A stretch of DNA of 64,000 nucleotides from a virus (IMGVR_UViG_3300046003_006038:1-64000), one strand, 5' to 3'; counted from the first letter of the stretch, positions 6,994 through 62,010 are shown. The notes: generated by a model not told the origin, from the sequence alone. A program made the numbers and translations.

Positions 6994-7045
6994 TTTTAAT
7001 TATTGATACCTAAATATAAGAACTATTCTAATCAAAGGCAACTAT
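6994..7045 (-). promoter_or_regulatory. phage-family promoter element
   Basis: ttttaattattgatacctaaatataagaac...gcaact. Confidence 0.6.
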
Positions 7046-7261
7046 TTTTAAACTATTTTTATCTACTGAGGTTAATTTATTTTCTACTGTCCTTAAGACT
7101 GCTTCATCATTCTGATCAAACATCTCTAATAAGACTCCTATAACTCTCTTTCCAAAGAACTTATCTGTGCCTTCATAAACCATTCCAATCATTGGAGAGG
7201 AAGTCTTAGCGACTTTCCTCCCTTTGACCTTCCATGTTCCTCTTAAATCTCCATCACTCAT
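7028..7261 (-). CDS. hypothetical early protein
   Basis: ORF in track. Confidence 0.55.
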   Translation of the reverse strand: MSDGDLRGTWKVKGRKVAKTSSPMIGMVYEGTDKFFGKRVIGVLLEMFDQNDEAVLRTVENKLTSVDKNSLKIVAFD

Positions 7262-7458
7262 TAGGATGCCTTTGCTAACTCTTCTTGAACATTCTCTAAT
7301 GCGATCTTATAACCAAAGTTGATTGCCATCTGCATTAATAAAATATCCATTGAACCATTATTGGCTTTAGCAAATGCTTCAAGATCTTCTCTTGTGTTAG
7401 GAGTTGCTACAATACCTCTTGATAACATTTTGAACTGCTCTTCGAAAAACTTTTCCAT
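7261..7458 (-). CDS. hypothetical early protein
   Basis: ORF in track; ATGA overlap with downstream gene. Confidence 0.55.
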   Translation of the reverse strand: MEKFFEEQFKMLSRGIVATPNTREDLEAFAKANNGSMDILLMQMAINFGYKIALENVQEELAKAS

Positions 7459-7466
7459 AACTTATT

Positions 7467-7518
7467 TGTTTTAATTATTGATACCTAAATATAAGAAATA
7501 TAATTGTAACTAGCAACT
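7467..7518 (-). promoter_or_regulatory. phage-family promoter element
   Basis: Conserved motif copy. Confidence 0.6.
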
Positions 7519-7519
7519 T

Positions 7520-7879
7520 TTATTCATCATCTCTTTCTTCATCATTTGCTCTTTCTAGCTCAACTAAATCATCTGCTTCTCCAAAGTCCATAAAGGTATT
7601 CTCTAAAGCTTCTCTAACATAATCTAAATTCAATCCAATACTTTCTACTTCCAATCTATTACCATAACTGATATTAAATTCAACTGAAGTATAATCTACA
7701 ATCTCTTCTGTATTCCTTTCAAAGCTACCGATAACTTTATCAATTGCTCTTTCAATATCATCTACTGAGATTACTCTTCCTCCTCCTTCAATTGAATTGA
7801 TAAGATTGATAACATCTTCTTTTGAAAAGATTGAAGATGCTGAATTCTGAACTGACTGTAATACTAATTCTTTTTTCAT
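7520..7879 (-). CDS. hypothetical acidic protein
   Basis: ORF in track. Confidence 0.55.
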   Translation of the reverse strand: MKKELVLQSVQNSASSIFSKEDVINLINSIEGGGRVISVDDIERAIDKVIGSFERNTEEIVDYTSVEFNISYGNRLEVESIGLNLDYVREALENTFMDFGEADDLVELERANDEERDDE

Positions 7880-7889
7880 AATGTTATAT

Positions 7890-7940
7890 GTTTTAATTAT
7901 TGATACCTAAATATAAGAACTTTATCTTTATGAGGCAACT
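7890..7940 (-). promoter_or_regulatory. phage-family promoter element
   Basis: Conserved motif copy. Confidence 0.6.
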
Positions 7941-7948
7941 TTATTTTA

Positions 7949-8218
7949 CTAAGCTTTTTTTATTTCTTTTAAAAATTCCTCTAACATATCTTCATCTGAA
8001 TTATGATACCCTAACTGACTGAAGAAGTTAGTTTCTAATTTTGAAATCAAATCTGTAAAAGATTCTATTGAATCAATTTCAAATAACATTTCCCCAAGAT
8101 TTGAATAATGATTTCTAAATTCTTCTTTCTCTAAAGGAAGATCATCTGCAAAGATGTTGTACATTTCAATTGCAGATTCTTTCAATACTTGTTTTGCTGT
8201 ATATAATAAATTTGACAT
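7949..8218 (-). CDS. hypothetical protein
   Basis: ORF in track. Confidence 0.55.
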   Translation of the reverse strand: MSNLLYTAKQVLKESAIEMYNIFADDLPLEKEEFRNHYSNLGEMLFEIDSIESFTDLISKLETNFFSQLGYHNSDEDMLEEFLKEIKKA

Positions 8219-8227
8219 AATATATTG

Positions 8228-8277
8228 TTTTAATTATTGATACCTAAATGTATGAACTTTAATTCAATTGAGCAACT
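8228..8277 (-). promoter_or_regulatory. phage-family promoter element
   Basis: Conserved motif copy (variant ..aaatgtatgaac..). Confidence 0.55.
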
Positions 8278-8280
8278 TTT

Positions 8281-8538
8281 TTAAACTAAACATTTAAAAG
8301 AAGTTTCAAAATAAACACTACTTTTTACAGCTTGTCTAACAGCATAGATAGCATCCAATAATTCTTCATACTCAAAGACATACATAGGAAGTTTTGTTTG
8401 CATATTGCTGATTGAGAAACTTGTCCTGTTGTGGTTAATTAGAGTGTAATCTAAAGTTTCTCCATTTGAGCGTACTTCAAGATTTTTTTTATTACCCATG
8501 TAATCACTAACTCCGATAACTGCTACTAATTTTGACAT
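8281..8538 (-). CDS. hypothetical protein
   Basis: ORF in track. Confidence 0.55.
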   Translation of the reverse strand: MSKLVAVIGVSDYMGNKKNLEVRSNGETLDYTLINHNRTSFSISNMQTKLPMYVFEYEELLDAIYAVRQAVKSSVYFETSFKCLV

Positions 8539-8549
8539 AATATATACTG

Positions 8550-8600
8550 TTTTAATTATTGATACCTAAATATACGAAATAGATTAGTAACTAGCAACTA
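8550..8600 (-). promoter_or_regulatory. phage-family promoter element
   Basis: Conserved motif copy. Confidence 0.6.
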
Positions 8601-8611
8601 TTTCACAAACT

Positions 8612-8642
8612 ATTTTAACCCAAAAAGGCCCCTAATAGGAGC
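8612..8642 (-). terminator. rho-independent terminator
   Basis: Minus strand: GGGCUCCUAUUAGGGGCC hairpin followed by UUUUUGGG. Confidence 0.5.
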
Positions 8643-8667
8643 CCTTTCTTCGATCAATAATTAAAAA

Positions 8668-9456
8668 CTATTCAGCTAAAGTGTGCTGAACAATATTTTC
8701 TCGTAGTCCATAAACTTGATCAATTATAGAACTAACGTTTACATTTTCTTCACTTGATGTACTACCTCCATGAGCAAAAGTAAGTACTGCAGTACCTTTC
8801 TTACCTGACTTAGAAACATCAATCAACTTAATATTAATTACAGTTGGAGTGTAGTTGTACTTCAATTGAATACCTTTTCCTTTGACAAACTCAACTCCAC
8901 CATTCTTTAAATCGAATTCAATTTTTTCTCTTTCTATAACTCTAATTAACTCTTGAACTTCTCTAACCTCTCTTCCTACTTGTTCCATTTCTTTATACAC
9001 TGCACTATATTCTTCTCTGAAAGAAAGCACAGCTTCATTTGCAGCATCAATTATTTTATCTTGATCATTCAAAACAATCTCTGCTAAATCTCCTAACATT
9101 CTTAATCTTTTTAATTCGAAAGAGTCAACTCCTTTTGTAGAAGTAGTATAGTAAGATAAATCAATTCCACTATAACACTTGTTACTTTTCACTCCATCAA
9201 AATTCCAATTCTCTCTTAAATTTAAACTAAATAATTCTTTCTTGTAAGAGTAATCTGGATGATCTGCTTTGAAGTAAACAGACCCTCTAGTTACTTCAAT
9301 GTAAGCATAAGGACTAAATCCTGAGAAGAAAGGAAGTAAAGCATCTGAAATTGCTTGTTGCTCTCTTACGTAAATGTCCCCTCTTTTGTTTTCTATTAAT
9401 TCTTTTTGAGCTGTAAGGATTGCTCTTTGATCCTCTAATAAACTTAATCTTGTCAT
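8668..9456 (-). CDS. hypothetical protein (262 aa)
   Basis: ORF in track. Confidence 0.6.
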   Translation of the reverse strand: MTRLSLLEDQRAILTAQKELIENKRGDIYVREQQAISDALLPFFSGFSPYAYIEVTRGSVYFKADHPDYSYKKELFSLNLRENWNFDGVKSNKCYSGIDLSYYTTSTKGVDSFELKRLRMLGDLAEIVLNDQDKIIDAANEAVLSFREEYSAVYKEMEQVGREVREVQELIRVIEREKIEFDLKNGGVEFVKGKGIQLKYNYTPTVINIKLIDVSKSGKKGTAVLTFAHGGSTSSEENVNVSSIIDQVYGLRENIVQHTLAE

Positions 9457-9464
9457 GATGTTAT

Positions 9465-9515
9465 ATGTTTTAATTATTGATACCTAAATATATGAACATT
9501 GATCCTAATAAGCAA
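9465..9515 (-). promoter_or_regulatory. phage-family promoter element
   Basis: Conserved motif copy; the ~80 bp region is duplicated at 10021-10100. Confidence 0.6.
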
Positions 9516-9548
9516 CTATTTTAACAACTTTTTTTAAACTTTTTTTAG

Positions 9549-9635
9549 TAGTCAGGACAGGATTTGAACCTGTATCTTTATGTTGCCTAGTATTTTTACC
9601 GTACAACTTGCGTCTACCAATTCCGCCACCTGACT
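9549..9635 (-). tRNA. tRNA-like gene, type II (tRNA-Leu-like D-arm), non-canonical anticodon region; possible pseudo-tRNA
   Basis: Minus strand AGTCAGG-TG-GCGGAATTGGTAGACGC...ACAGG-TTCAAAT-CCTGT-CCTGACT-A. It has a perfect 7-bp acceptor, a Leu-type D-arm and a canonical T-arm. No 5-bp/7-nt anticodon stem-loop can be drawn in the 36-nt middle segment. No encoded CCA. Confidence 0.5.
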
Positions 9636-9649
9636 GTTTTAAAAACCTA

Positions 9650-10012
9650 CTACGATAATTTTCGTAGTAAGTACTTGTAAATATCCTCTGAAGTAATGTC
9701 TAACTTCATATCAGTACAGAATGCTTTAATAACATCAAACTGATCTTCAGGATCTGAAACTAAATCAATGCCGTCTACATTTATCAAACATTGATTACCT
9801 TGAGCATCTTGAACTGCATACAAAGTGTCATTAGGCCAGTTTAGATGATTCTCTACTGCAAATACAGTACCTTGCATACCTACTAAAAATGCCTCATTGT
9901 GCTCAGTATTCTTAAAACCTAACAATCTGAACATGTCATCGTAAGTTGTATAAGTTCTTCCTGGATTAGTAATTACTACTTTGCTTCCTACTTTAATTTT
10001 TGAATTTGCCAT
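9650..10012 (-). CDS. hypothetical protein
   Basis: ORF in track. Confidence 0.55.
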   Translation of the reverse strand: MANSKIKVGSKVVITNPGRTYTTYDDMFRLLGFKNTEHNEAFLVGMQGTVFAVENHLNWPNDTLYAVQDAQGNQCLINVDGIDLVSDPEDQFDVIKAFCTDMKLDITSEDIYKYLLRKLS

Positions 10013-10024
10013 GATTTTTATTGT

Positions 10025-10075
10025 TTTAATTATTGATACCTAAATATATGAACATTGATTCTAATAAGCAACTAT
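10025..10075 (-). promoter_or_regulatory. phage-family promoter element
   Basis: Conserved motif copy. Confidence 0.6.
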
Positions 10076-10108
10076 TTTAACAACTTTTTTTAATTTATTT
10101 TTAAACCC

Positions 10109-10408
10109 TTATTTCAGGGCTTTTAATATTTCTCTCTCAGCATCATTTGAAACTGATTTACTTTTTGATCCGATATGCCATGTTACATACTGATCCCTTT
10201 CTAACGGACGACCTTCCTTCCAGTCGTAAATACAAAATACTTCCCCTTCGTTTGTTTCCATTTCCCATTCGAAATTCGTTTTGTCCTCTCCCGTATTATA
10301 TTCCATGGTCGGCTCTCCGAATGCTGAAATTAATTGATCAACTGTTGCTCGAATTACAACTCCGTGAAATGATGTCCCGTCAGTGTTTTGATAAGTCTTT
10401 TTTGCCAT
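10109..10408 (-). CDS. hypothetical protein
   Basis: ORF in track. Confidence 0.55.
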   Translation of the reverse strand: MAKKTYQNTDGTSFHGVVIRATVDQLISAFGEPTMEYNTGEDKTNFEWEMETNEGEVFCIYDWKEGRPLERDQYVTWHIGSKSKSVSNDAEREILKALK

Positions 10409-10414
10409 GATTTT

Positions 10415-10475
10415 ATATGTTTTAATTATTGATACCTAAAGATAAGAAAAAGGCCCCGAAGGGCCAACCCTTTTG
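10415..10475 (-). promoter_or_regulatory. terminator-promoter unit (GGCCC-UUCG-GGGCC hairpin + U-run, then family promoter)
   Basis: aaaaaggccccgaagggccaaccctttt on the plus strand. On the minus strand the hairpin is followed by UUUUUCUU and TATCTTTAGGTATC. Confidence 0.6.
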
Positions 10476-10479
10476 TCAA

Positions 10480-10737
10480 TTATTTTTTAAAAGTTTTTCT
10501 ATTGGCTGTAAATGAGATAACCTCGTTTAAGTTAACAAATCTGAAGTCTCTTTTCTGCATATCGTATACAGTTAGTAAATTCTTTTCGGAAGGACTGAAA
10601 GAATGTCCAACTCCTTTAACTCCTTTTCTAACCCCTCTCATGGCATTCATTTTTCTAAGACTCCCATCTTTTTTAACAAAAGTTACAGAGAAGATTTTCT
10701 TGTTAGCAGTTTCTTGTAATAGATTTTCTACGATCAT
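10480..10737 (-). CDS. hypothetical basic protein
   Basis: ORF in track. Confidence 0.55.
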   Translation of the reverse strand: MIVENLLQETANKKIFSVTFVKKDGSLRKMNAMRGVRKGVKGVGHSFSPSEKNLLTVYDMQKRDFRFVNLNEVISFTANRKTFKK

Positions 10738-10744
10738 GATTTTA

Positions 10745-10800
10745 TATGTTTTAATTATTGATACCTAAATATAAGAAGAAGCCTCCGAAGAGGCAACTTT
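10745..10800 (-). promoter_or_regulatory. terminator-promoter unit (GCCUC-UUCG-GAGGC hairpin overlapping the -33 TTG)
   Basis: gcctccgaagaggcaacttttttt; same arrangement at 23843 and 61985. Confidence 0.6.
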
Positions 10801-10802
10801 TT

Positions 10803-11099
10803 TTAGATATTTTTTATAACTAATTTCAAATAGATTGGACGAATCTTACCACACTTTAATCTAGAAGCCCACCCCTCTTCTTCCAAAGCTGACTGTATAT
10901 CCTTTACAGATAATCCTTCTCTATGGAGAGCTACGATTCTAATTTTCATAGAATCCTCTTTTGGTTTCTTTTCTACAGTAGCTCCTTTGATATTTTTTTC
11001 AACAAGTGCTTGAAGATCTTCAGTCTTCATCATGTGAGCTGGTTTAGCAGTTTGAACATTTAAACTTTTTACTTGTGCAATTAATTCTGATCTTGTCAT
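10803..11099 (-). CDS. hypothetical protein
   Basis: ORF in track. Confidence 0.55.
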   Translation of the reverse strand: MTRSELIAQVKSLNVQTAKPAHMMKTEDLQALVEKNIKGATVEKKPKEDSMKIRIVALHREGLSVKDIQSALEEEGWASRLKCGKIRPIYLKLVIKNI

Positions 11100-11104
11100 G
11101 ATTT

Positions 11105-11160
11105 TATATGTTTTAATTATTGATACCTAAATATATGAACTTTAATAATGTGATGCAACT
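11105..11160 (-). promoter_or_regulatory. phage-family promoter element
   Basis: Conserved motif copy. Confidence 0.6.
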
Positions 11161-11345
11161 TTTTTTACAACTTTTTTTGAAAAATAAATTTGATAGTCAC
11201 AAATTAATTCAATAGCCTCATCTTCATCTAACTCTCCAAACTCTTCTTCATAGTTGTAAAGTATATCAGATAAGTAATCAAAATCTTCCACTTCTTTCTG
11301 AGTTAGGTTGTGAGCATCTAACCATTTGAAAACTTGTACTTTCAT
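11142..11345 (-). CDS. hypothetical acidic protein
   Basis: ORF in track. Confidence 0.5.
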   Translation of the reverse strand: MKVQVFKWLDAHNLTQKEVEDFDYLSDILYNYEEEFGELDEDEAIELICDYQIYFSKKVVKKVASHY

Positions 11346-11349
11346 AATA

Positions 11350-11405
11350 TATTGTTTTAATTATTGATACCTAAAGATAGTAAATTATATAACGTGAGAC
11401 AACTT
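11350..11405 (-). promoter_or_regulatory. phage-family promoter element
   Basis: Conserved motif copy. Confidence 0.55.
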
Positions 11406-11562
11406 TTTTTCAATTAATTTAATCCCATCCCTTGCTGGGCCATTAATACTACTAGATCTTGAGGATCAAAAGACATGTGAGTGATTCCTCTTAATGTGAC
11501 TGAATAATATACCAATCCTCCTAATGCTACTGTTTTTTCCATAACCTTTTATTTTTTTAGAA

Positions 11563-11784
11563 TTAATCTTCTTGAACTGTGAAAATATAAGTACCTACCT
11601 GAACCCTCTTACCTATCAAATCTTCTATATAGTAACTTCCTTCATCTGTCATGAATAATTGGTCATCAGTCCAATCCTCAGGAGTAGTAAGTAATTTAAA
11701 CAAGTCAACATCTTTGTACTGCTCTGTATTACCCCAATTGTCTACTACCTCTTCACATTTATTGATTTTAATTAAATCTTCCAT
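11563..11784 (-). CDS. hypothetical protein
   Basis: ORF in track. Confidence 0.55.
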   Translation of the reverse strand: MEDLIKINKCEEVVDNWGNTEQYKDVDLFKLLTTPEDWTDDQLFMTDEGSYYIEDLIGKRVQVGTYIFTVQED

Positions 11785-11789
11785 AATCT

Positions 11790-11845
11790 ATATTGTTTTA
11801 ATTATTGATACCTAAATATAAGGAGAAATATTATTACTAGCAACT
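11790..11845 (-). promoter_or_regulatory. phage-family promoter element
   Basis: Conserved motif copy. Confidence 0.6.
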
Positions 11846-12232
11846 TTTTTCTAAGTTATTTTCATTAATAACAAATACTTTATCAGCCCATGTCTTAGCA
11901 TTGACAGATCTATACTGTGCCTGGTCCATTAGATTTGTATTATAGAATAAACCATTAACTGTCCCTACAGTAAGATCCTCAGCTATCTTTTCATCTAATA
12001 TAATTACTTTAGTTCCTTTCTTAGCAAATACTGTCATCCAATGATTAGTTCCTTCAGCTTTGAATTGAATAGTCTGAAGAGCTCCTTTCTTCCATCTAGT
12101 AAGGCTAGGTAATTCAGAACCTATCTCAGATGCTATCATAAAGCCTGCTTGTACCTTTACTATGGCCTGAAATCTACCTTTTCTTTCTCCAATGAAATTT
12201 ACTAACTGTAATCCTTTGATGTTGTTTACCAT
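11837..12232 (-). CDS. hypothetical protein
   Basis: ORF in track. Confidence 0.55.
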   Translation of the reverse strand: MVNNIKGLQLVNFIGERKGRFQAIVKVQAGFMIASEIGSELPSLTRWKKGALQTIQFKAEGTNHWMTVFAKKGTKVIILDEKIAEDLTVGTVNGLFYNTNLMDQAQYRSVNAKTWADKVFVINENNLEKSC

Positions 12233-12237
12233 GATAT

Positions 12238-12290
12238 ATGTCGTTTTAATTATTGATACCTAAAGATAAGGAATTGTATAATATGAACCA
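12238..12290 (-). promoter_or_regulatory. phage-family promoter element
   Basis: Conserved motif copy. Confidence 0.55.
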
Positions 12291-12365
12291 ACTATTTACT
12301 ATAATATTTTCCTATTAAAAGTATACCTGCCATAAATAAAATATATTAAAAAAACTTTGTGAATT

Positions 12366-12400
12366 AGTTGCTGGATAGAATCATTCTTCATATCTTTAGG
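12366..12400 (+). promoter_or_regulatory. plus-strand copy of the family promoter (AGTTGC-N20-TATCTTTAGGTAT)
   Basis: Same -33/-7 spacing as the ~25 minus-strand copies, but oriented rightwards. Confidence 0.55.
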
Positions 12401-12404
12401 TATG

Positions 12405-12548
12405 TTAGAAGGGAATACAGGGGCCTGGCTTTGAGAGATAGTCGGAAGAGTGGACGGTCCGGTACGCCTGTTTCTGTAGTCGGTAATACCTAGTACCTGG
12501 TGATAAAAAAAGAAGGACCCTGATTGGAGTCCTTTTTCTTGTGCTTGT
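12405..12548 (+). ncRNA. candidate small non-coding RNA (~145 nt) bounded by a promoter and an intrinsic terminator
   Basis: Promoter at 12366-12400; GC-rich transcript body with no ORF longer than 10 aa; terminator AGGACCCUGAUUGGAGUCCUUUUUCUU at 12517-12548. Confidence 0.45.
12517..12548. terminator. bidirectional rho-independent terminator
   Basis: aaaaaaagaaggaccctgattggagtcctttttctt; the hairpin has a T-run after it on both strands. Confidence 0.6.
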
Positions 12549-12632
12549 CCTTCCTGGTGTAGGATTTCTTTGACTTGTGTACTAGGTGCTTGGAAGCAGC
12601 CCACCTCTCCTGGAGGGTAACTTGAATTGTTT

Positions 12633-12854
12633 TCATGGTGTATTATTAATAAAGAATATAGAGTAGACATAAGGAGTATTTAGTTTAAAGGTTTTACCTA
12701 CCTTAGCCTGTACCCTGTTAGATATAAATATTGAAGGAGGAGTTACCTCTACAGTACTCCATATAGGCCCTACCTCAACTAACTTCACTCTTCTAGAAGG
12801 TGATTCAGGACACCAGCAATCCCTCCCTATAACCGTATTTAATTCTTTTATCAT
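12633..12854 (-). CDS. hypothetical small protein (73 aa)
   Basis: ATG follows the promoter element at 12860-12905. The track start 12944 lies upstream of that promoter, so it was trimmed. Confidence 0.4.
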   Translation of the reverse strand: MIKELNTVIGRDCWCPESPSRRVKLVEVGPIWSTVEVTPPSIFISNRVQAKVGKTFKLNTPYVYSIFFINNTP

Positions 12855-12859
12855 AACCC

Positions 12860-12905
12860 TTACTGTTTTTAGATACCTAAAGATAAGAACAATAAGCCTT
12901 ATAAG
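12860..12905 (-). promoter_or_regulatory. phage-family promoter element (variant)
   Basis: agatacctaaagataagaac...gcaact. Confidence 0.5.
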
Positions 12906-12944
12906 CAACTTTTTATTAATCTTTTTTTTAACCCCCTCCTGCAA

Positions 12945-13540: not shown

Positions 13541-13627
13541 CCATTGTCCTTATAACGTCTTCTTTATTATCCTATATAGTATTCTTATTTATTATATTGC
13601 TGGAGATATTATTTCTTTCTATAGTAT

Positions 13628-14460: not shown

Positions 14461-14466
14461 AAGTCT

Positions 14467-14580: not shown

Positions 14581-14703
14581 TTAAGAATTAATAACCCTAC
14601 AAACCCATGCTTGAGAAACATTAAGTCTTTGTGCAATAATAGAAGTTGTTAAATTTTCATTAAAGAATAAATCCTTTGCCATTTGTGTTTTTGTAATTTT
14701 CAT
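14581..14703 (-). CDS. mini helix-turn-helix DNA-binding protein (40 aa)
   Basis: Hand translation MKITKTQMAKDLFFNENLTTSIIAQRLNVSQAWVCRVINS; classic HTH (TTSIIAQRLNVSQAWVCRVI). Family promoter immediately upstream. Confidence 0.5.
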   Translation of the reverse strand: MKITKTQMAKDLFFNENLTTSIIAQRLNVSQAWVCRVINS

Positions 14704-14705
14704 AA

Positions 14706-14760
14706 CCTTTATTGTTTTTAATTATATCTAAATATACGAAAAAAGAGCTGCGCTAGCAAC
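14706..14760 (-). promoter_or_regulatory. terminator-promoter unit (GAGUUGC-UAGC-GCAGCUC hairpin + U-run, family promoter)
   Basis: aaaaaagagctgcgctagcaactcttttatt; near-identical copy at 15485-15515. Confidence 0.55.
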
Positions 14761-14771
14761 TCTTTTATTAA

Positions 14772-21968: not shown

Positions 21969-22571
21969 CTACCCTATCATGTTTTCCTTAATTGCTCGTA
22001 CAACATCTGATATGTCTTGAAATCTATGATCTTGTTGTGAGTATGATAACCTGTAGGGTACTTCAAAACTTCTAATAAACATTATTACTTCTTTAAAATC
22101 TAATAACTCATCTTGTGTTGATAAGAAAAAGGAACTACTGTTAATACTCTGTGCAGTGTAGTTTTGAATCATTGCTTGGTATATTGTTCGTAGTTCATTC
22201 AGAAACTCGTAAGTAACTTTAAACTGCTCCTGAGTCTTATAGTTTGTAACAGTCTCTCCATTGTGTCGAGTAAGAGTAAGATGAGGTGTGAACGAAGGAT
22301 TTATTATATAAAAATAGTAAGACATCTGATCACAATATATAGTGCTCAGGTACATTGCATAGAACCCACCTAGAGACGTTCCTACTATATGTACTTCATG
22401 TCCCTTGTACAGATCTAAAATTGTACGCAAATGCTCAATAGCCTTCTCAGGCTGGTATGATAGTTGAGGTGCATGTATGAGTACGCTGTCAGGAAACTGT
22501 ATCGATAACTCTACAGCTTTTTGCCCTGGTCCTGAATTGAATCCATGAATATTTATGATAACCTTTTTCAT
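21969..22571 (-). CDS. alpha/beta-hydrolase fold esterase (YqiA-like)
   Basis: IHGFNSGPG ... GTSLGGFYA (GxSxG nucleophile elbow); ~200 aa. Confidence 0.5.
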   Translation of the reverse strand: MKKVIINIHGFNSGPGQKAVELSIQFPDSVLIHAPQLSYQPEKAIEHLRTILDLYKGHEVHIVGTSLGGFYAMYLSTIYCDQMSYYFYIINPSFTPHLTLTRHNGETVTNYKTQEQFKVTYEFLNELRTIYQAMIQNYTAQSINSSSFFLSTQDELLDFKEVIMFIRSFEVPYRLSYSQQDHRFQDISDVVRAIKENMIG

Positions 22572-22574
22572 TGT

Positions 22575-22625
22575 AATTTTTCTATACCTAAATATATGAA
22601 TATGTATTTATATAAGCAACTACTT
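22575..22625 (-). promoter_or_regulatory. phage-family promoter element (variant)
   Basis: ctatacctaaatatatgaat...agcaact. Confidence 0.5.
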
Positions 22626-22731
22626 TTTAAACAATTTAAAAAAATCTGTACTTATATTTTTCTCTCTTAATTTTTCATTCAACTCATGCTGTTTGACTAA
22701 TTGATTGGCAACTATTCTTTCTCTGGAAGGT

Positions 22732-26807: not shown

Positions 26808-26808
26808 A

Positions 26809-27345: not shown

Positions 27346-27354
27346 ATCTCTATA

Positions 27355-28931: not shown

Positions 28932-28932
28932 T

Positions 28933-30413: not shown

Positions 30414-30423
30414 TATTATTTTA

Positions 30424-36376: not shown

Positions 36377-36377
36377 A

Positions 36378-39616: not shown

Positions 39617-40217
39617 AGTAATTATTTTGTTTTTCTTGTCTGTCGATTGTCTTTGGATGGTATAAGGCCCATTCCTCTTCTACCGGAAGCATACCATGTA
39701 TCTTAAATCCTTCTAATACTTCGTGTACTTTATTTTTCCATCTTATATGAGGAGCATTCTTATAGATTCTCATTTGCCAATCAGCCCAGTTGACCCATCC
39801 TTTTTCATTCACATGCCATCCCCACTTCTGAATATGTTCTTGAGTTAAACCCTCTACAGTATTTACTCTAGGGATTCTAAGCATATCGACATCATTAGTC
39901 TTCAGCATTTCAGGAAGATTTTGTATCAAATTGATATGAGGAATTTCATCAGCATCTATATTGAAGATATAATCTCCTGTACAGTATGATGTTAGTAAGT
40001 TTTTCCAATTAGCAAAATGATTTTCAAAATCATGAACTGCTACTGTAGTTTGGTGTGCTATTGAGGTTAGGTAGTCTTTTACTATCTGTGTTCCGTTCTT
40101 CTCATCAAATAGGATTACTATCTCATCTTCTGTACGTTTGTTGGAAAGGAGGAAAGAAACTAAACGTTTAATTTCCTCCAATTCATTACAAACTGTTATT
40201 GCATAACTAATTTTCAT
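39603..40217 (-). CDS. glycosyltransferase family 2 (small)
   Basis: ISYAITVCNELEEI...DADE (GT2-like, DxD). Confidence 0.55.
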   Translation of the reverse strand: MKISYAITVCNELEEIKRLVSFLLSNKRTEDEIVILFDEKNGTQIVKDYLTSIAHQTTVAVHDFENHFANWKNLLTSYCTGDYIFNIDADEIPHINLIQNLPEMLKTNDVDMLRIPRVNTVEGLTQEHIQKWGWHVNEKGWVNWADWQMRIYKNAPHIRWKNKVHEVLEGFKIHGMLPVEEEWALYHPKTIDRQEKQNNYYDTL

Positions 40218-40258
40218 ACTTAAATATATGAAATTTATTCTTTATCTGCAACTTCTAC
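40218..40258 (-). promoter_or_regulatory. family promoter heading the glycan locus
   Basis: cttaaatatatgaaatttattctttatctgcaact. Confidence 0.5.
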
Positions 40259-53909: not shown

Positions 53910-56243
53910 TTAATGACCCTCGGCGAAGTTGTTTGCTATCTGCGGTGGTGCTTTTAAGGTTACTCCTGGAAGTTGTGTTGTGTTTTCCATTAATTCTTGG
54001 ACATAAGGCATGAACATTTCTGCTTGATCTTCTCTTACGTTTATAATTAACTGGTCATGAATCTGAGCTTGTACTCTGGCATCTACTCCTAGTTCTTTTG
54101 CTTTCCTGTTAATTTGAATTGCTGCTCTGTTTACAACCGCTGCTGCAAGTGATTGTAGTTGGAAATTTAAACAGTTGTTGATTCCATTTCGATAATCCAT
54201 ATACATTCTGTTCACAGGATCTTTTCCGTATTTGGTTTCTAGATCTTTTCTAAATCTCCAATCTAATACTTGGTCTCCAAACTTTTCAAAGATCTGTTTT
54301 ACTTTTGGTAAGTGACGAATACGTCCTACTTTATTTGTAACAAACCCATGAGTCTTTGCTTGATTGCGTGAAGCAATCATCCACTCTCTTAATTGTGGAA
54401 ACCCACTTAAATATCCTTCAACTAATTTGTCTCCTTCCTTAGCAGGTATTCCCAATGTCATTGCTAATGCATATCCTGACATTCCGTATGCTACTCCTAG
54501 TGAATACGACTTTGCTTGTTGTCTCTTAACTGGATCTAGTTTCTTTAGGAATATTGGTGACTTGGTGTCTGGTGATACTCCGTTTGGATATTTCACAGTA
54601 TCTTGGTCCAACTTTTCTGTCTTGATGGCAATAGTGGAGTAAAAATCCCATCCATTGTTAAAAATGTCTTGTAATCCCTTATCTCCCGATACTGATGCAA
54701 AGCAGTGAGGTTCTAGAGAAGTGTAGTCATTATCAATTAATTTTCTTCCTTGTCCTGCAATTAGGAACTCTCTTACTACGTTTGTGTAATGTACTAGTAG
54801 TGGAGATTCTTCTCCTTCTTCTTTTGGTTTAGGAAGTTGTTGAGCATCTGAACCATACCTTCCTGATACCGTACCATTTTGTTTGTAGTAGAAGTAGTAT
54901 CGTCCATCCTCTTGTCCATCTAAGAATCTATCGATGTATGTTGATTTAATCTTAACTAATTTGTTATATGTTCTAAGATTATTTGCCCACTCGTATGTTT
55001 TAGAAAGCTCCTCCAACATATCCATATCAAATTGATCCTGCCCTTTCTTAGTTTGTGTAAGAGGTTTGATTCCCATATACTTGAAAGCAATCTCACCTAA
55101 GTGTTTCTTAGATTGAATGTTCAAATAGTCACCATCATTCTCATCCTTCCACATCGACATAGAAATTCTAACAACTTCCATTTCATCCAATAGAGAAATA
55201 TCTCCTGTCTGTAAAAATTGTTTAACATTACTATCTTCTAAGTTGTCAATATCTTTTTTACCTAAAGAATACTTTCCAGTCTTTTCACTTCTTGGTAATG
55301 GTAGTGAATGCATGATTGCTAAATTCTGAGCCCAGTTACCTCTGTGTGATGGTGGATAGTTGTGTAATGCTGTATCCACTACCCATTCCTTTGCTTCTGG
55401 AATGCTTAGGATGCTGTCTATTACAATCTTCTTGTTTGCTTGTAGATCTCTTATGATATCTTGTTTTGTTTTTTCTAATAGTGGAAGATCTAAAGCTACT
55501 CCAAACTCCTCCATTGGAACAGTTACTTCTCTGTAGAGAGGCATCACTTCTTCCTCAAAGAAGAACTTTTCTAGTTCTTCCTCTTTTAGTACTTTTATAA
55601 AGTGATTACAAACTCTTAAAGTTAAGTCCGTATCAGCAGCAGCATACTTGGAAAGGATTGCCATATCTGCTTTAAAGATTTCGTAAAGATCTTTTGTAGT
55701 CGATCCACCATTCTTCTTTATCGATTCCTTCAACTCCAACTGCTCTTGGTTGGCTGCTTTTTCAACATCTAACCCTATGTGCTGCTGGATGGAGATTGCT
55801 AAAGGCTTTAGTCCAAACACACCCATACCGGCACCCTCTTCCTGTACTGTATGCACAAGGAGCGCTGTATCTACCCAAAGATCTTCCAGTAATGATACTC
55901 CATAGAAGTTCTTAGTAATACGGCAGTCAAAAGAAGCATTGTGCATTACTAGCCTCTTACCCTTTAACATCGGTAGTAGCTTTTTAGTAATACCATGTGC
56001 TCCTTTTCCGCCAATGGTACATTCCTCCAATTGATTTGTTTCTGTATTCCATTTCTGAGTTGGAAGGTAAAATCCTATTCCTTCCTCGCCTGATACAGAC
56101 CATCCTACAACTTGATCTTTTCTTACGTTCAATCCTGTTGTTTCAGTATCGTAAGCAAGAACTTCTGATTGATTAATATGTTCGATAAGGAGGTTGACAG
56201 TCTCAATACTGTCGACGTGGTAGTACCTCTTTTCTATTTGCAT
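53910..56243 (-). CDS. DNA polymerase I family A with 3'-5' proofreading exonuclease domain
   Basis: Exo I LAYDTETTGL; motif A DNDYTSLEPH; motif B RQQAKSYSLGVAYGMSGYALA; motif C IHDQL. The track start is TTG inside the upstream terminator, so the ATG (MQIEK) was chosen. Confidence 0.85.
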   Translation of the reverse strand: MQIEKRYYHVDSIETVNLLIEHINQSEVLAYDTETTGLNVRKDQVVGWSVSGEEGIGFYLPTQKWNTETNQLEECTIGGKGAHGITKKLLPMLKGKRLVMHNASFDCRITKNFYGVSLLEDLWVDTALLVHTVQEEGAGMGVFGLKPLAISIQQHIGLDVEKAANQEQLELKESIKKNGGSTTKDLYEIFKADMAILSKYAAADTDLTLRVCNHFIKVLKEEELEKFFFEEEVMPLYREVTVPMEEFGVALDLPLLEKTKQDIIRDLQANKKIVIDSILSIPEAKEWVVDTALHNYPPSHRGNWAQNLAIMHSLPLPRSEKTGKYSLGKKDIDNLEDSNVKQFLQTGDISLLDEMEVVRISMSMWKDENDGDYLNIQSKKHLGEIAFKYMGIKPLTQTKKGQDQFDMDMLEELSKTYEWANNLRTYNKLVKIKSTYIDRFLDGQEDGRYYFYYKQNGTVSGRYGSDAQQLPKPKEEGEESPLLVHYTNVVREFLIAGQGRKLIDNDYTSLEPHCFASVSGDKGLQDIFNNGWDFYSTIAIKTEKLDQDTVKYPNGVSPDTKSPIFLKKLDPVKRQQAKSYSLGVAYGMSGYALAMTLGIPAKEGDKLVEGYLSGFPQLREWMIASRNQAKTHGFVTNKVGRIRHLPKVKQIFEKFGDQVLDWRFRKDLETKYGKDPVNRMYMDYRNGINNCLNFQLQSLAAAVVNRAAIQINRKAKELGVDARVQAQIHDQLIINVREDQAEMFMPYVQELMENTTQLPGVTLKAPPQIANNFAEGH

Positions 56244-56285
56244 AACTGATTTTATTATTGTGTAAAGGTAATAAAAGAGCTGCAA

Positions 56286-61954: not shown

Positions 61955-61959
61955 AACTT

Positions 61960-62010
61960 TACTTTTTATTTAATATAGGAAATTGCCTCCGAAGAGGCAA
62001 CTTTTTTTAT
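61960..62010 (-). promoter_or_regulatory. terminator-promoter unit (GCCUC-UUCG-GAGGC)
   Basis: taggaaattgcctccgaagaggcaacttttttt. Confidence 0.5.

What the first reader, a model, noticed from the sequence alone, without database searches (positions are those of the whole stretch)
6994..12905. One promoter design reused at least 28 times; it reveals a Bacteroidetes-type host and terminator-promoter fusions
Almost every early gene is preceded by AGTTGC-N19/20-TATATTTAGGTATCAATAATTAAAAC-N~10-ATG. Copies lie at 6994, 7467, 7890, 8228, 8550, 9465, 10025, 10415, 10745, 11105, 11350, 11790, 12238, 12860, 14706, 15455, 17390, 19620, 20932, 21364, 22575, 23806, 30424, 37698, 40218 and 61960, plus 4040 and 4788. 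The -33 TTG and -7 TATATTTA(GG) with ~20-nt spacing match the sigma-A consensus of Bacteroidetes (TTTG / TAnnTTTG), not the E. coli -35/-10. This indicates a Flavobacteriia-type host. In many copies a UUCG-looped hairpin (GCCUC-UUCG-GAGGC, GGCCC-UUCG-GGGCC, GAGUUGC-UAGC-GCAGCUC) of the upstream gene's terminator overlaps the -33 TTG, so a terminator and the next promoter share nucleotides.
Basis: partly seen in the sequence, partly recalled or inferred. Interest (0 to 1): 0.55.

Follow-up and report, generated by a model that had tools for sequence, protein, structure and literature searches.

The report
Repeated promoter cassettes of Flavobacterium phage
A T4-like phage of Flavobacterium puts the same ~75-base expression cassette (a Bacteroidetes-type promoter, sometimes with a terminator hairpin built into it, plus a leader without a Shine-Dalgarno sequence) in front of about 30 mostly small genes. 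This is the Bacteroidetes counterpart of the promoter-terminator cassettes already known from T4-like coliphages, so it is real and useful but not a new kind of thing.

Summary
All copies lie on the minus (coding) strand. A weight matrix finds 29 copies there (about 0.2 expected) and one on the plus strand.

The design is: A-tract, AGTTGC, exactly 20 nt after GTTG, TAT(A/C)TTTAGGTAT, an A-rich leader without Shine-Dalgarno sequence, then ATG 15-30 nt after the box. One copy, at 40252, has its ATG only 3 nt after the box.

The nearest relative is Flavobacterium phage immuto (81-87% nt identity). It has the same cassettes, as do about 50 uncultured viral contigs (about 500 distinct copies; spacing N20 in 554 of 599).

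Seven of the 29 copies carry a strong hairpin inside or over the promoter. In the wider family, 107 of 500 do, against 5 of 500 in shuffled controls.

I read these as host sigma-A-type early promoters packaged as portable cassettes. They are equivalent to the PeSL promoter-terminator cassettes of T4-like phages, and gene modules differ between relatives at cassette boundaries.

Two caveats apply. The box always ends in A where the host consensus has G. The exact extended design is at chance level in bacterial genomes. No transcript data exist.

In passing: the plus-strand copy drives a conserved, unclassified small RNA.

The parts
61952..62007 (-). Cassette. GTTG at 62001, -7 variant TATATTAA, ATG at 61954. 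Hairpin AAGUUGCCUC-UUCG-GAGGCAAUUU includes the -33 element.
   Evidence: PWM 23.8 bits; hairpin dG -13.6, z -4.5
56241..56300 (-). Cassette, weak -7 box (TACCTTTA). GTTG at 56294, ATG at 56243. Hairpin AAAGAGUUGC-UUAAUU-GCAGCUCUUU. The upstream stop codon lies in the loop.
   Evidence: PWM 14.5 bits; dG -15.5, z -6.3
40215..40258 (-). Cassette. GTTG at 40252. The ATG is only 3 nt after the box, so the mRNA would be leaderless, or the copy is not used for this gene. The -33 lies in the upstream coding sequence. Conserved in immuto at 52371.
   Evidence: PWM 27.7 bits
37686..37748 (-). Cassette of the TATATTAA subclass. GTTG at 37742, ATG at 37688.
   Evidence: PWM 19.6 bits
30411..30468 (-). 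Cassette of the TATATTAA subclass, weak. GTTG at 30462, ATG at 30413.
   Evidence: PWM 11.4 bits
23800..23866 (-). Cassette. GTTG at 23860, ATG at 23802. Hairpin AAGUUGCCUC-UUCG-GAGGCAAUUU includes the -33 element. It drives the ortholog of immuto gp165, annotated as DksA-like.
   Evidence: PWM 40.1 bits; dG -16.2; terminator scan
22569..22626 (-). Cassette. GTTG at 22620, ATG at 22571.
   Evidence: PWM 35.8 bits
21359..21423 (-). Cassette. GTTG at 21417, ATG at 21361.
   Evidence: PWM 34.0 bits
20927..20989 (-). Cassette. GTTG at 20983, ATG at 20929.
   Evidence: PWM 37.4 bits
19614..19684 (-). Cassette. GTTG at 19678, ATG at 19616.
   Evidence: PWM 39.9 bits
17384..17450 (-). Cassette. GTTG at 17444, ATG at 17386.
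   Evidence: PWM 43.7 bits
15450..15515 (-). Cassette. GTTG at 15509, ATG at 15452. Hairpin AAAAGAGUUGC-UUAC-GCAGCUCUUUU, with the -33 in the 5' arm.
   Evidence: PWM 38.0 bits; dG -13.7
14701..14766 (-). Cassette. GTTG at 14760, ATG at 14703. Hairpin AAAAGAGUUGC-UAGC-GCAGCUCUUUU, with the -33 in the 5' arm. Its spacer is nearly identical to that of the neighbouring cassette at 15509.
   Evidence: PWM 39.3 bits; dG -13.7
12852..12915 (-). Cassette. GTTG at 12909, ATG at 12854.
   Evidence: PWM 42.6 bits
12230..12298 (-). Cassette with the common 26-nt leader. GTTG at 12292, ATG at 12232.
   Evidence: PWM 38.4 bits
11782..11850 (-). Cassette with the common leader. GTTG at 11844, ATG at 11784.
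   Evidence: PWM 43.4 bits
11343..11409 (-). Cassette with the common leader. GTTG at 11403, ATG at 11345.
   Evidence: PWM 36.8 bits
11097..11165 (-). Cassette with the common leader. GTTG at 11159, ATG at 11099. The upstream stop codon lies inside the spacer.
   Evidence: PWM 41.2 bits
10735..10803 (-). Cassette with the common leader. GTTG at 10797, ATG at 10737. Hairpin GCCUC-UUCG-GAGGC starts at the G of TTG and is followed by UUCUUCUU. It drives a protein with a WYL_2 domain.
   Evidence: PWM 47.1 bits; dG -11.3; terminator scan; Pfam
10406..10474 (-). Cassette with the common leader. GTTG at 10468, ATG at 10408. Hairpin GGCCC-UUCG-GGGCC is followed by UUUUUCUU.
   Evidence: PWM 41.2 bits; dG -12.4; terminator scan
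10010..10078 (-). Cassette with the common leader. GTTG at 10072, ATG at 10012. Near-duplicate of the cassette at 9516, spacer included.
   Evidence: PWM 44.0 bits; alignment
9454..9522 (-). Cassette with the common leader. GTTG at 9516, ATG at 9456.
   Evidence: PWM 44.7 bits
8536..8604 (-). Cassette with the common leader. GTTG at 8598, ATG at 8538.
   Evidence: PWM 45.6 bits
8216..8282 (-). Cassette with the common leader. GTTG at 8276, ATG at 8218.
   Evidence: PWM 36.9 bits
7877..7945 (-). Cassette with the common leader. GTTG at 7939, ATG at 7879.
   Evidence: PWM 42.7 bits
7456..7523 (-). Cassette with the common leader. GTTG at 7517, ATG at 7458.
   Evidence: PWM 44.9 bits
6979..7048 (-). 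Cassette with the common leader. GTTG at 7042, ATG at 6981.
   Evidence: PWM 39.0 bits
5738..5803 (-). Cassette, weaker (GTTGG; TATCTTTATG). GTTG at 5797, ATG at 5740.
   Evidence: PWM 22.7 bits
4766..4829 (-). Cassette. GTTG at 4823, ATG at 4768.
   Evidence: PWM 37.8 bits
12361..12403 (+). The only plus-strand copy of the promoter. GTTGC at 12367, box TATCTTTA at 12391-12398, then GGTAT. It faces against all the genes.
   Evidence: PWM 38.7 bits; same arrangement in immuto and about 28 related loci
12402..12548 (+). Candidate small non-coding RNA driven by the plus-strand copy. It ends at the bidirectional terminator at 12513-12534.
   Evidence: Conserved core with a covarying hairpin; covariance model gives 33 hits in 29 sources (28 related loci plus the window), on the opposite strand wherever orientation was determined; no Rfam family; terminator

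Best explanation
Each copy is a self-contained expression cassette for a phage gene that is probably expressed early. Its parts, in order:
- an A-rich upstream tract;
- a -33 element, AGTTGC;
- a spacer free in sequence but fixed in length (20 nt after GTTG);
- an extended -7 element, TAT(A/C)TTTAGGTAT;
- a predicted start site inside GGTATC;
- a leader of about 20-25 nt without a Shine-Dalgarno sequence, with A at -12/-13 and a purine at -3;
- the ATG.

The unmodified host RNA polymerase with the Bacteroidetes primary sigma factor most likely recognises it right after infection. In about a quarter of the copies, the free spacer or the -33 element itself forms a GC-rich hairpin followed by a T-rich run that extends into the -7 box. 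This hairpin would stop transcripts coming from the upstream gene, but it is absent from transcripts that start at the cassette's own promoter.

The roughly 75-nt cassettes are repeated in one orientation between small genes of unknown function. They therefore also offer homology for recombination, which inserts, deletes and moves gene modules, as proposed for the PeSL cassettes of T4-like phages.

Shown here: the sequence anatomy, the fixed spacing, strand and position specificity, conservation across a phage family, excess hairpins, and mosaic gene order with breakpoints at cassettes.

Inferred: recognition by sigma-A, early timing, the start site, termination, and recombination as the cause of the mosaic.
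For: Real, strand-specific and upstream of genes.

Bipartite with a fixed spacer. N20 is found in 26 of 26 window copies, 34 of 38 immuto copies and 554 of 599 copies in viral contigs, although 17-23 nt was allowed. The spacer sequence is unconstrained.

Columns not forced by the search pattern are also conserved:
- A before GTTG, 84%;
- C after GTTG, 68%;
- T at box position 3, 100%;
- A or C at box position 4, 99%;
- GG after the box, 84-87%;
- TAT after that, 84-93%.

Match to host rules.
- F. johnsoniae: box TAHHTTTG at -12 to -5, start site 4-5 nt later, and A at -3, -6, -12 and -13 favouring translation (PMC6847099).
- F. psychrophilum: median 5'UTR of 24 nt (PMC9723704). The predicted phage leaders have a median of 22 nt and a mode of 24 nt.
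- A mapped host tRNA-Cys promoter reads TTGC-N18-TATATTTG with TTTCT before the box.
- TAAAA, a putative Flavobacterium ribosome-binding motif, is present in the leader (PMC2483708).

Other support.
- Shine-Dalgarno tetramers are depleted: 2 of 107 genes against 17.8% background.
- Sigma-70-type sites are not enriched.
- The relative infects Flavobacterium.
- A different motif, (A/C)TATTTATAATAA, precedes structural genes in immuto, which suggests separate temporal classes.

Hairpins. Seven of 29 copies have dG of -11 or lower. In the family, 107 of 500 have dG of -9 or lower, against 5 of 500 after shuffling the spacer. Different stems keep their pairing, for example GGAGA/UCUCC, GGGAA/UUCCC and GCAGA/UCUGC. 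Terminator-like sites number 19 against 7.6 expected.

Modules.
- 9 of 10 cassette-led proteins tested have no Pfam family.
- 16 of 24 homology-block ends against immuto lie within 30 nt of a cassette. Random positions would give 31%, and 47% of gene starts have a cassette.
- Adjacent cassettes share near-identical spacers in 7.1% of pairs, against 2.3% for non-adjacent pairs and 1.2% between loci.
- Unrelated modules sit between duplicated cassettes at the same site in the window and in immuto.
- 29 of 31 gene clusters have at least 2 different downstream neighbours, and one module sits at a different place in the two genomes.
Against: No transcript, start-site or timing data exist for this phage or for immuto.

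The box ends in A in every copy, whereas G at -5 is described as nearly invariant in F. johnsoniae. In the stored part of the F. psychrophilum start-site table, TAT[AC]TTTG outnumbers TAT[AC]TTTA by 147 to 49.

The invariant AGTTGC and GGTAT are not part of the host consensus, and the -33 element is weak in host promoters.

The exact extended design occurs only 17 times in one genome each of 185,579 bacterial species. That is about chance level, and includes one Flavobacterium and one Tenacibaculum hit. The design is therefore a phage-specific refinement and could depend on a phage factor.

In immuto every G in virion DNA is replaced by a bulky 7-deazaguanine derivative. How the host polymerase reads the G-containing elements is unknown.

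Only about a quarter of the copies have a hairpin. Breakpoints at cassettes are partly expected, simply because cassettes sit at gene boundaries. The contigs used for family statistics were fetched with the leader sequence and are partly redundant.
Confidence: 0.72

Rival explanations
1. The cassettes are a phage-specific promoter class that needs a phage-encoded factor. This could be a sigma factor, a sigma-appropriating activator such as T4 MotA/AsiA reading the AGTTGC box, or a polymerase modification. They would then be middle rather than immediate-early promoters.
For: Positions outside the host consensus are invariant (AGTTGC, GGTAT), and A replaces the host's G at -5. The exact design is at chance level in bacterial genomes. 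The -33 element is weak in host promoters. One cassette drives a DksA-like polymerase-binding protein, so the phage does appear to act on the host polymerase.
Against: The cassettes precede the densest cluster of small genes of unknown function, which is the usual content of immediate-early regions. Some promoter must work on naked incoming DNA, and no other repeated promoter-like motif was seen in that region. The box matches the host rule at 7 of 8 positions, with the right distance to the ATG. A-ending boxes do occur in mapped host sigma-A promoters. No sigma factor or polymerase is annotated in immuto, apart from a doubtful 100-aa RpoN/RPB10 label.
Confidence: 0.15
2. The repeat is mainly a mobile or recombination element, for example a miniature transposon or a site for a recombinase or homing enzyme. 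The promoter-like look would then be incidental.
For: Module order is mosaic and neighbouring cassettes are duplicated.
Against: There are no terminal inverted repeats or target duplications. Orientation is strict, and the distance to the following ATG is tightly constrained (15-30 nt in 28 of 29 copies). The two conserved blocks are separated by a spacer of free sequence but fixed length, which is the signature of polymerase contact rather than of a recombination site. The plus-strand copy sits in front of a non-coding RNA with its own terminator, as a promoter would.
Confidence: 0.04
3. The hairpins are not terminators. They could be RNA 3'-end stabilisers or processing sites for upstream messages, or DNA-level sites that tune the promoter they sit in.
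For: Several are followed by mixed T/C runs rather than clean T-tracts, such as TTCTTCTT or AATTTCATATC. Three quarters of the cassettes do without a hairpin.
Against: Stems are GC-rich with UUCG or similar loops. They lie within 30 nt after, or over, the upstream stop codon and are followed by T-rich sequence. Three pass a generic terminator scan. Stems covary, which points to an RNA-level function. PeSL stem-loops in the same positions terminate transcription in reporter assays (PMC2839356).
Confidence: 0.2
4. The identical 26-nt box-plus-leader shared by 13 copies is kept because a post-transcriptional regulator binds it. This could be a translational repressor or a nuclease, like T4 RegA or RegB, which would switch off the whole early gene set together.
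For: The leader is conserved far beyond what A-richness requires, both within the window and across the family (80-90% at many positions).
Against: No candidate regulator was identified. The conserved A positions coincide with those that favour translation in F. johnsoniae. Recombination between cassettes would also homogenise leaders. This reading is compatible with the main explanation rather than opposed to it.
Confidence: 0.2

Closest known systems
PeSL (promoter-early stem-loop) cassettes of T4-like phages RB49/phi1, T4/PST and KVP40/nt-1 (Arbiol 2010, PMC2839356; Comeau 2014, PMC4122927)
   Same: Both are roughly 100-bp composite elements repeated between small genes of unknown function in a variable region of a T4-like myovirus. 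Both have an AT-rich upstream tract, a host-type early promoter, a stem-loop that can lie between or over the promoter boxes, then translation signals and the ATG. Both are associated with insertions, deletions and replacements between related genomes (for PeSLs; here).
   Different: Here the promoter is of the Bacteroidetes -33/-7 type with a 20-nt spacer, not -35/N17/-10. The leader has no Shine-Dalgarno sequence. Only about a quarter of the copies have a stem-loop. Promoter, terminator and mini-circle activities were measured for PeSLs and are untested here.
Bacteroidetes primary sigma factor promoters (-33 TTTG / -7 TAnnTTTG; refined to TAHHTTTG in F. johnsoniae)
   Same: TTG about 20 nt upstream of a TA-nn-TTT box. 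No G at box positions 3-4. The box-to-ATG distance fits a start site 4-5 nt after the box and a leader of about 24 nt.
   Different: The last box position is always A instead of G. AGTTGC and GGTAT are invariant extras. The base before TTG is G, not T. The -33 element is much stronger than in host promoters. The spacer is 20 nt, against 19 nt in the one host example I could read.
T4 early promoters
   Same: Many near-identical, better-than-consensus host-type promoters with A-rich upstream tracts, each in front of one or a few small early genes, and read on hypermodified phage DNA. The T4 features are from my own knowledge and the review PMC2988021, which was listed but not read.
   Different: A different sigma family and motif, and a different DNA modification: glucosyl-hydroxymethylcytosine in T4 against a 7-deazaguanine derivative in immuto.
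Morons of lambdoid phages
   Same: A single gene carrying its own promoter and terminator, inserted between other genes (as discussed in PMC2839356).
   Different: Morons do not share a conserved flanking cassette and are often in the opposite orientation. Here all cassettes share one design and one orientation.

Membership tests
Bacteroidetes sigma-A (sigma-ABfr) -33/-7 promoter | -7 box with T, A at positions 1-2, TTT at positions 5-7 and no G at positions 3-4 (TAHHTTT-) | tested here: met
   26 strict window copies and 500 distinct family copies. Box position 3 is T in 100% and position 4 is A or C in 99%, although the search left both free. The rule is from PMC6847099.
Bacteroidetes sigma-A (sigma-ABfr) -33/-7 promoter | G at the last box position (-5), described as nearly invariant in F. 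johnsoniae | tested here: not met
   A at this position in 24 of the 29 minus-strand copies (the 5 TATATTAA/TACCTTTA-type copies read A or T in the scan register). Only 2 TTG-N17-21-TAnnTTTG matches occur on the coding strand. A-ending boxes do occur in mapped F. psychrophilum sigma-A promoters, but as a minority (49 against 147 for the two commonest octamer pairs). The copies therefore sit at the edge of the family's variation, not at its consensus.
Bacteroidetes sigma-A (sigma-ABfr) -33/-7 promoter | TTG (TTTG) around -33, about 19-21 nt upstream of the box | tested here: met
   GTTG followed by exactly 20 nt in 26 of 26 copies. The published spacing range is from my memory of Bayley 2000 and Chen 2007, which were not available. 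One host example shows 19 nt.
Bacteroidetes sigma-A (sigma-ABfr) -33/-7 promoter | Transcription starts 4-5 nt after the box and depends on host RNA polymerase with the primary sigma factor | not testable with these tools
   Needs 5'-end mapping or in vitro transcription. Only the box-to-ATG distance is consistent.
PeSL composite promoter-terminator cassettes of T4-like phages | Repeated host-type early promoter with an AT-rich upstream tract, in intergenic spaces of a variable region rich in genes of unknown function | tested here: met
   24 of the 29 copies lie between 4.7 and 24 kb. There is an A-tract before the -33 element. 9 of 10 proteins tested have no Pfam family, and 65 of 131 module clusters are singletons.
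PeSL composite promoter-terminator cassettes of T4-like phages | A stable stem-loop within, overlapping or next to the promoter | tested here: inconclusive
   Present in 7 of 29 window copies and 107 of 500 family copies, far above the control (5 of 500), but absent from most copies.
PeSL composite promoter-terminator cassettes of T4-like phages | Insertions, deletions and replacements between related genomes occur at the cassettes | tested here: met
   16 of 24 block ends lie at cassettes. Different modules sit between duplicated cassettes at the same site. One module sits at a different place in the window and in immuto. Causation is not shown.
PeSL composite promoter-terminator cassettes of T4-like phages | Recombination between neighbouring cassettes yields mini-circles; promoter and terminator activity measured | not testable with these tools
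   Needs inverse PCR on infected cells and reporter assays.
PeSL composite promoter-terminator cassettes of T4-like phages | Sigma-70-type -35/N17/-10 promoter and a Shine-Dalgarno sequence before the ATG | tested here: not met
   Sigma-70-type sites are not enriched. Shine-Dalgarno tetramers occur before 2 of 107 genes. This reflects the host's different signals. It works like a PeSL but is not the same sequence family.
Intrinsic (Rho-independent) terminators | GC-rich stem-loop followed by a T-rich run, placed after a stop codon | tested here: met
   This holds for the 7 hairpin-bearing copies. Stems have 5-11 pairs, T-rich tails follow, and the upstream stop codon is within 30 nt or in the loop. 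Three pass the generic scan. Termination itself was not tested.

The most novel reading that the evidence does not exclude
The cassette may not be a plain host promoter. It could be a promoter class shaped by the phage's own biology. In the relative immuto, every G of the infecting DNA carries a bulky 7-deazaguanine modification. The systematic replacement of the host's near-invariant G at -5 by A, together with the invariant AGTTGC and GGTAT blocks, could reflect one of two things: adaptation of promoter recognition to hypermodified DNA, or recognition with the help of a phage protein. In that case the roughly 500 natural variants would be a ready-made data set on how the little-studied Bacteroidetes sigma factor reads modified DNA. 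The cassettes would also serve as the vehicle that moves genes of unknown function between phages.
Probability: 0.15. Interest if true: 0.7.

Novelty: new member of a known kind. Interest (0 to 1): 0.38.

Why it matters
- It gives a direct, sequence-level host call (a Flavobacterium-type Bacteroidetes host) for this phage and for about 50 uncultured viral contigs.
- It provides roughly 500 natural variants of a strong Bacteroidetes-type promoter with an unusually clear -33 element and a strict 20-nt spacer. The -33 element is poorly defined in host genomes. This is useful for defining how the phylum's atypical primary sigma factor reads promoters, and for building expression tools for Flavobacteria.
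- It extends the PeSL idea of portable promoter-terminator cassettes that shuffle small genes. The idea moves from T4-like phages of Proteobacteria to a T4-like lineage on a host with different transcription and translation signals. This suggests the architecture is a general solution rather than a peculiarity of coliphages.
- The templates are probably fully G-modified, which makes the effect of 7-deazaguanine modification on promoter recognition testable.

Tried and rejected
- **Rfam.** At curated thresholds over the whole window it found only a tRNA. A permissive search of 12300-13700 gave only chance-level hits, so neither the cassette nor the small RNA belongs to a described family.
- **Sigma-70-type promoters.** The scan showed no enrichment, so an E. 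coli-like reading is rejected.
- **Bacterial genomes.** I scanned one genome per species for the exact extended design, to see whether hosts use it. There were 17 hits, about chance level, in mixed taxa. This rejects the idea that the cassette copies a standard host housekeeping promoter word for word.
- **Isolated phages.** A search with one cassette found only the immuto phages.
- **Literature.** The mutational studies of Flavobacterium promoters (Chen 2007, Chen 2010) are not in the library, so the published optimum spacing could not be checked. The paper on Baltic Flavobacterium phages does not mention promoters. A text search for the small RNA's conserved 12-mer found nothing relevant.
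It scores 3.7 bits, so I do not count it.
- **Transposon or miniature mobile element.** Rejected: there are no terminal repeats, and orientation and distance to the ATG are strictly constrained.
- **Coding explanation for the small RNA core.** Rejected: indels are not multiples of three, the stem covaries, and a 13-nt block is 100% conserved amid divergent flanks.
- **Global fold of the small RNA.** It is no more stable than shuffled sequence (z = -0.64), so only the covarying hairpin and the terminator are supported.
- **Replication origin near 12-14 kb.** Cumulative GC skew shows no turning point, so skew gives no support.

Full report
**Observation.** The 26-mer TATATTTAGGTATCAATAATTAAAAC occurs 13 times with at most one mismatch between 6993 and 12268, and none is expected. 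The pattern GTTG-N(18-21)-TAnnTTTA has 26 minus-strand matches, all with a spacer of exactly 20 nt, against 3 on the plus strand. A weight matrix built from related contigs gives 29 minus-strand hits of at least 8 bits and one plus-strand hit, with about 0.2 per strand expected. In 28 of the 29 hits, an ATG that opens an ORF follows 15-30 nt after the box; the copy at 40252 has its ATG only 3 nt after the box. None is deep inside a gene, although about 92% of the window is coding. Without any prior, the commonest 10-mers and 12-mers in the window all come from this element. The copy at 4040 scores 3.7 bits. Copies at 56294 and 5797 and the plus-strand copy at 12367 were missed.

**Anatomy.** I aligned the window copies and 500 distinct copies from relatives. 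Reading in the direction of the genes, the cassette runs as follows:
- a weakly conserved A-n-T-T about one helical turn upstream;
- an A-tract;
- A-GTTG-C;
- about 15 nt of unconstrained sequence;
- T-t-C-n;
- TAT(A/C)TTTA;
- GGTAT;
- an A/T-rich leader, which reads CAATAATTAAAAC in the 13 near-identical copies;
- about 10 more nt, then the ATG.

Columns the search did not force are still conserved. Box position 3 is T in 100% of copies and position 4 is A or C in 99%. GG after the box is at 84-87% and TAT at 84-93%. A subclass of about five copies in the 30-63 kb part has TATATTAAT(A/G) instead of TATATTTAGG.

**Source and host.**
[quoted passage not shown] That phage has a 160-kb genome, was isolated on Flavobacterium sp. 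LMO8 and carries T4-like gp20 and gp23. Shared blocks are 81-87% identical.
- Immuto has 34 copies with the same 20-nt spacing, clustered at 60.9-76.2 kb, with the same leader.
- The 21-mer TTTAGGTATCAATAATTAAAA occurs in 69 stretches from about 50 uncultured viral contigs. In these, spacing is N20 in 554 of 599 matches when 17-23 nt is allowed.
- Among 50,697 isolated phage records, only the immuto phages carry the cassette.
- Shine-Dalgarno tetramers precede 2 of 107 genes, against 17.8% in random 17-mers, as expected for a Bacteroidetes host.

**Comparison with host rules.**
- In F. johnsoniae the -7 box is TAHHTTTG at -12 to -5. T, A, TTT and G are nearly invariant, the start site lies 4-5 nt further on, and the -33 element is weak (PMC6847099).
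- The phage box fits at seven of eight positions, including the absence of G at positions 3-4. It ends in A in 24 of the 29 copies and never in the host's G.
- In the stored part of the F. psychrophilum start-site table, TAT[AC]TTTG outnumbers TAT[AC]TTTA by 147 to 49. Individual sigma-A promoters with A-ending boxes exist. The phage design is thus within host variation but not at its centre.
- A strongly used host tRNA-Cys promoter reads TTGC-N18-TATATTTG with TTTCT before the box, which is close to the phage design but one nt shorter.
- By the host rule, the start site falls inside GGTATC. This gives leaders with a median of 22 nt and a mode of 24 nt; the host median is 24 nt.
- Sigma-70-type sites are not enriched.
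- The exact extended design (AGTTGC-N19-TATNTTTAGGTAT) has only 17 matches in one genome each of 185,579 bacterial species. That is about chance level and includes one Flavobacterium and one Tenacibaculum hit. At least one other hit (L085, which also carries the small RNA) looks like a phage contig binned into a genome, and the 2-kb contig L077 in an Aquiluna bin may be another. The cassette is therefore a phage-specific refinement, not a copy of a standard host promoter.

**Leader.** A is found at -12 in 93% and at -13 in 90% of cassette genes. A purine is at -3 in 97% and T at -2 in 90%. A at -3, -6, -12 and -13 favours translation in F. johnsoniae. TAAAA, a putative Flavobacterium ribosome-binding motif, is part of the conserved leader. 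I infer that the conserved leader is an optimised translation start region for a host that does not use Shine-Dalgarno pairing.

**Hairpins.**
- Seven window copies have strong hairpins (dG -11 to -16 kcal/mol, z -3 to -6): those at 62001, 56294, 23860, 15509, 14760, 10797 and 10468. The other 22 have none.
- In five of the seven, the -33 GTTGC lies in the 5' arm. In the other two, the stem begins at or just after the G of TTG.
- The T-rich run after the stem continues into the -7 box.
- Each hairpin lies within 30 nt of the upstream stop codon. In one copy the stop codon is in the loop.
- In the family, 107 of 500 copies have dG of -9 or lower, against 5 of 500 after shuffling the spacer. A further arrangement places GTTG in the loop. 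Stems differ while keeping their pairing.
- The generic scan finds 19 terminator-like sites in 4-24 kb against 7.6 expected.

**Modular shuffling.**
- Of ten cassette-led proteins, nine have no Pfam family; one has a WYL_2 domain.
- Against immuto, the early region is a mosaic. 16 of 24 ends of homologous blocks lie in or within 30 nt of a cassette in one of the genomes. Random positions would give 31%, and 47% of gene starts have a cassette.
- Adjacent cassettes share near-identical spacers (at least 14 of 16 variable nt) in 7.1% of pairs. The figure is 2.3% for non-adjacent pairs and 1.2% between loci.
- A clear case: at one site the window has a 120-aa gene plus a tRNA-like gene, and immuto has an unrelated 73-aa gene. 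In each genome the two flanking cassettes have the same spacer, but the spacers differ between genomes. The outer flanks are orthologous.
- Across 69 loci, 525 cassette-led ORFs form 131 clusters, of which 65 are singletons. 29 of 31 clusters with at least four members have at least two different downstream neighbours. One module lies at different places in the window and in immuto.
- These patterns are what recombination between cassettes would produce. They do not prove it, because whole-gene changes must break in intergenic DNA in any case, and the contigs are partly redundant.

**Mechanism.** The most likely reading (about 0.7) is as follows. The cassettes are strong early promoters read by the host polymerase with its primary sigma factor. 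They are fused to an optimised leader and, in a quarter of cases, to a terminator placed in the sequence-free spacer or over the -33 element. Such a hairpin acts only on transcripts arriving from upstream, because transcripts from the cassette's own promoter start downstream of it. Genes behind hairpin-free cassettes would receive both read-through and their own initiation. A different motif, (A/C)TATTTATAATAA, precedes several genes outside the early cluster and the structural genes of immuto. It resembles T4 late promoters and supports separate temporal classes.

The main rival (about 0.15) is that a phage factor is needed, given the A at -5, the invariant extras and the chance-level occurrence in bacteria. 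Immuto virion DNA has every G replaced by a formylaminomethyl-7-deazaguanine (PMC10516641). The window carries the syntenic FolE, DpdA, DpdN and QueF region. The early promoters are therefore probably read on fully G-modified DNA. Whether this relates to the missing G at -5 is speculation.

**What is known.** Composite promoter-terminator cassettes (PeSLs) were described in T4-like coliphages and vibriophages. They have an AT-rich tract, a host-type early promoter, a stem-loop that can lie between or over the boxes, a ribosome-binding site and the ATG. They are concentrated among genes of unknown function and sit at the indels between related phages. Promoter and terminator activity and mini-circles were demonstrated for them (PMC2839356, PMC4122927). 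The present element works like a PeSL but is built from Bacteroidetes signals. I found no description of it for immuto-like or other Flavobacterium phages in the searchable literature. I file it as a new member of a known kind: useful, but not surprising to a specialist.

**In passing.** The single plus-strand copy (12367) sits in front of a conserved 85-nt core, GGGGCCUGG-hairpin-CGGAAGAGUAGAC, that ends at a bidirectional terminator.
- The arrangement is conserved in immuto and in about 28 related loci, on the strand opposite to the genes wherever orientation was determined.
- The hairpin covaries.
- No Rfam family matches.
- In many relatives the core is followed by arrays of short UUAAAG...CUUUAA hairpins.

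This candidate small RNA may be the most original thing in the region. Further items are listed separately.

Noticed in passing
window 12361-12548 (+); immuto about 67438-67556 (-); L005-L073, L085: This is the only promoter copy facing against the genes. It drives a candidate non-coding RNA of about 140 nt that ends at a bidirectional terminator (12513-12534). The 85-nt core (GGGGCCUGG, a covarying GNRA-type hairpin, then CGGAAGAGUAGAC) gives 33 covariance-model hits in 29 sources (28 related loci plus the window). The hits are on the strand opposite to the genes wherever orientation was determined, and are sometimes in tandem. There is no Rfam match and no ORF. The whole-molecule fold is not unusually stable (z -0.64).
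   Followed up: partly
relatives of the small RNA, e.g. immuto about 67330-67440 (-), L005, L012, L056, L071: In many relatives the small RNA core is followed by 3-8 short hairpins with the same stem (UUAAAG-N3-7-CUUUAA) about 18 nt apart. The window lacks this array. They could be a protein-binding array on the RNA, or binding sites on the DNA.
   Followed up: no
window 12960-13560: A GC-richer stretch without a convincing ORF, full of ACCCGT(T) repeats. It includes a 13-nt tandem array (AACGGGTAACTAG, 7.6 copies, 12968-13061). This looks like iterons, but cumulative GC skew shows no turning point there.
   Followed up: partly
window 9549-9635 (-): A tRNA-like gene. Rfam scores it as tRNA at 43.5 bits, but ARAGORN misses it with default settings. 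With introns allowed, ARAGORN calls it tRNA-Ser(ACU) with a 9-nt intron. It sits in a window-specific module flanked by duplicated cassettes.
   Followed up: partly
window 61199, 59561, 53893, 47184, 2121 (-); immuto 90661, 95182, 128572, 146993, 153828 (+): A second promoter-like motif, (A/C)TATTTATAATAA, lies 18-28 nt before the ATG. In immuto it stands in front of tail and other structural genes. It resembles the T4 late promoter TATAAATA and is probably a late class.
   Followed up: partly
window 62001, 37742, 30462, 62998, 52231 (-): A subclass of the cassette with the same AGTTG box and spacing but a -7 box reading TATATTAAT(A/G). It is found only outside the dense early cluster and may be a weaker or differently timed class.
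   Followed up: partly
window about 14390-14480 and about 49930-50030 (-): Two copies of a GC-rich element. They share a core of about 45 nt, CTTTCTCTCCT(T/C)ACCGAAGGTG(T/C)CACGCGCAAATT, flanked by G-rich and C-rich arms. Both lie in intergenic DNA. Possibly a structured RNA.
   Followed up: partly
window 56760-63885: This stretch is syntenic with the immuto FolE, DpdA, DpdN (formyltransferase) and QueF genes at 79-84% nt identity. In immuto all G in virion DNA is replaced by fdPreQ1, so this phage's DNA is probably fully G-modified too.
   Followed up: partly
window 26035-39609: About 13.5 kb here corresponds to only about 5.8 kb in immuto (53023-58806), within the glycosyltransferase and sugar-modification gene cluster. 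This is a large replacement unrelated to the cassettes.
   Followed up: no
whole window, gene starts: Shine-Dalgarno tetramers occur before only 2 of 107 genes. Cassette genes have the start context R-T-Y-ATG (often GGTTATG or AATCATG), with T at -2 in 90%.
   Followed up: partly
window 23398-23802 (-) and 10480-10737 (-): Two cassette-driven genes have recognisable products. One is the ortholog of immuto gp165, annotated as DnaK suppressor (DksA-like), a polymerase-binding protein type. The other is an 85-aa protein with a WYL_2 domain.
   Followed up: no
L085 (CAJBLF010000034.1, Baltic bin-782); L077 (CAZKLA010000166.1, Aquiluna MAG): L085, a 3.3-kb contig filed under a bacterial metagenome-assembled genome, carries three cassette matches and the small RNA and is probably a phage contig binned by mistake. 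L077, a 2-kb contig in an Aquiluna bin, has a single cassette match and may be another.
   Followed up: partly
about 10-13 nt upstream of the -33 element in many cassettes, e.g. window 10084, 9528, 8610: A second, weaker AGTT(T)G or A-n-T-T lies one helical turn upstream of the -33 GTTGC. It could be an upstream element or the remnant of a duplicated -33.
   Followed up: no
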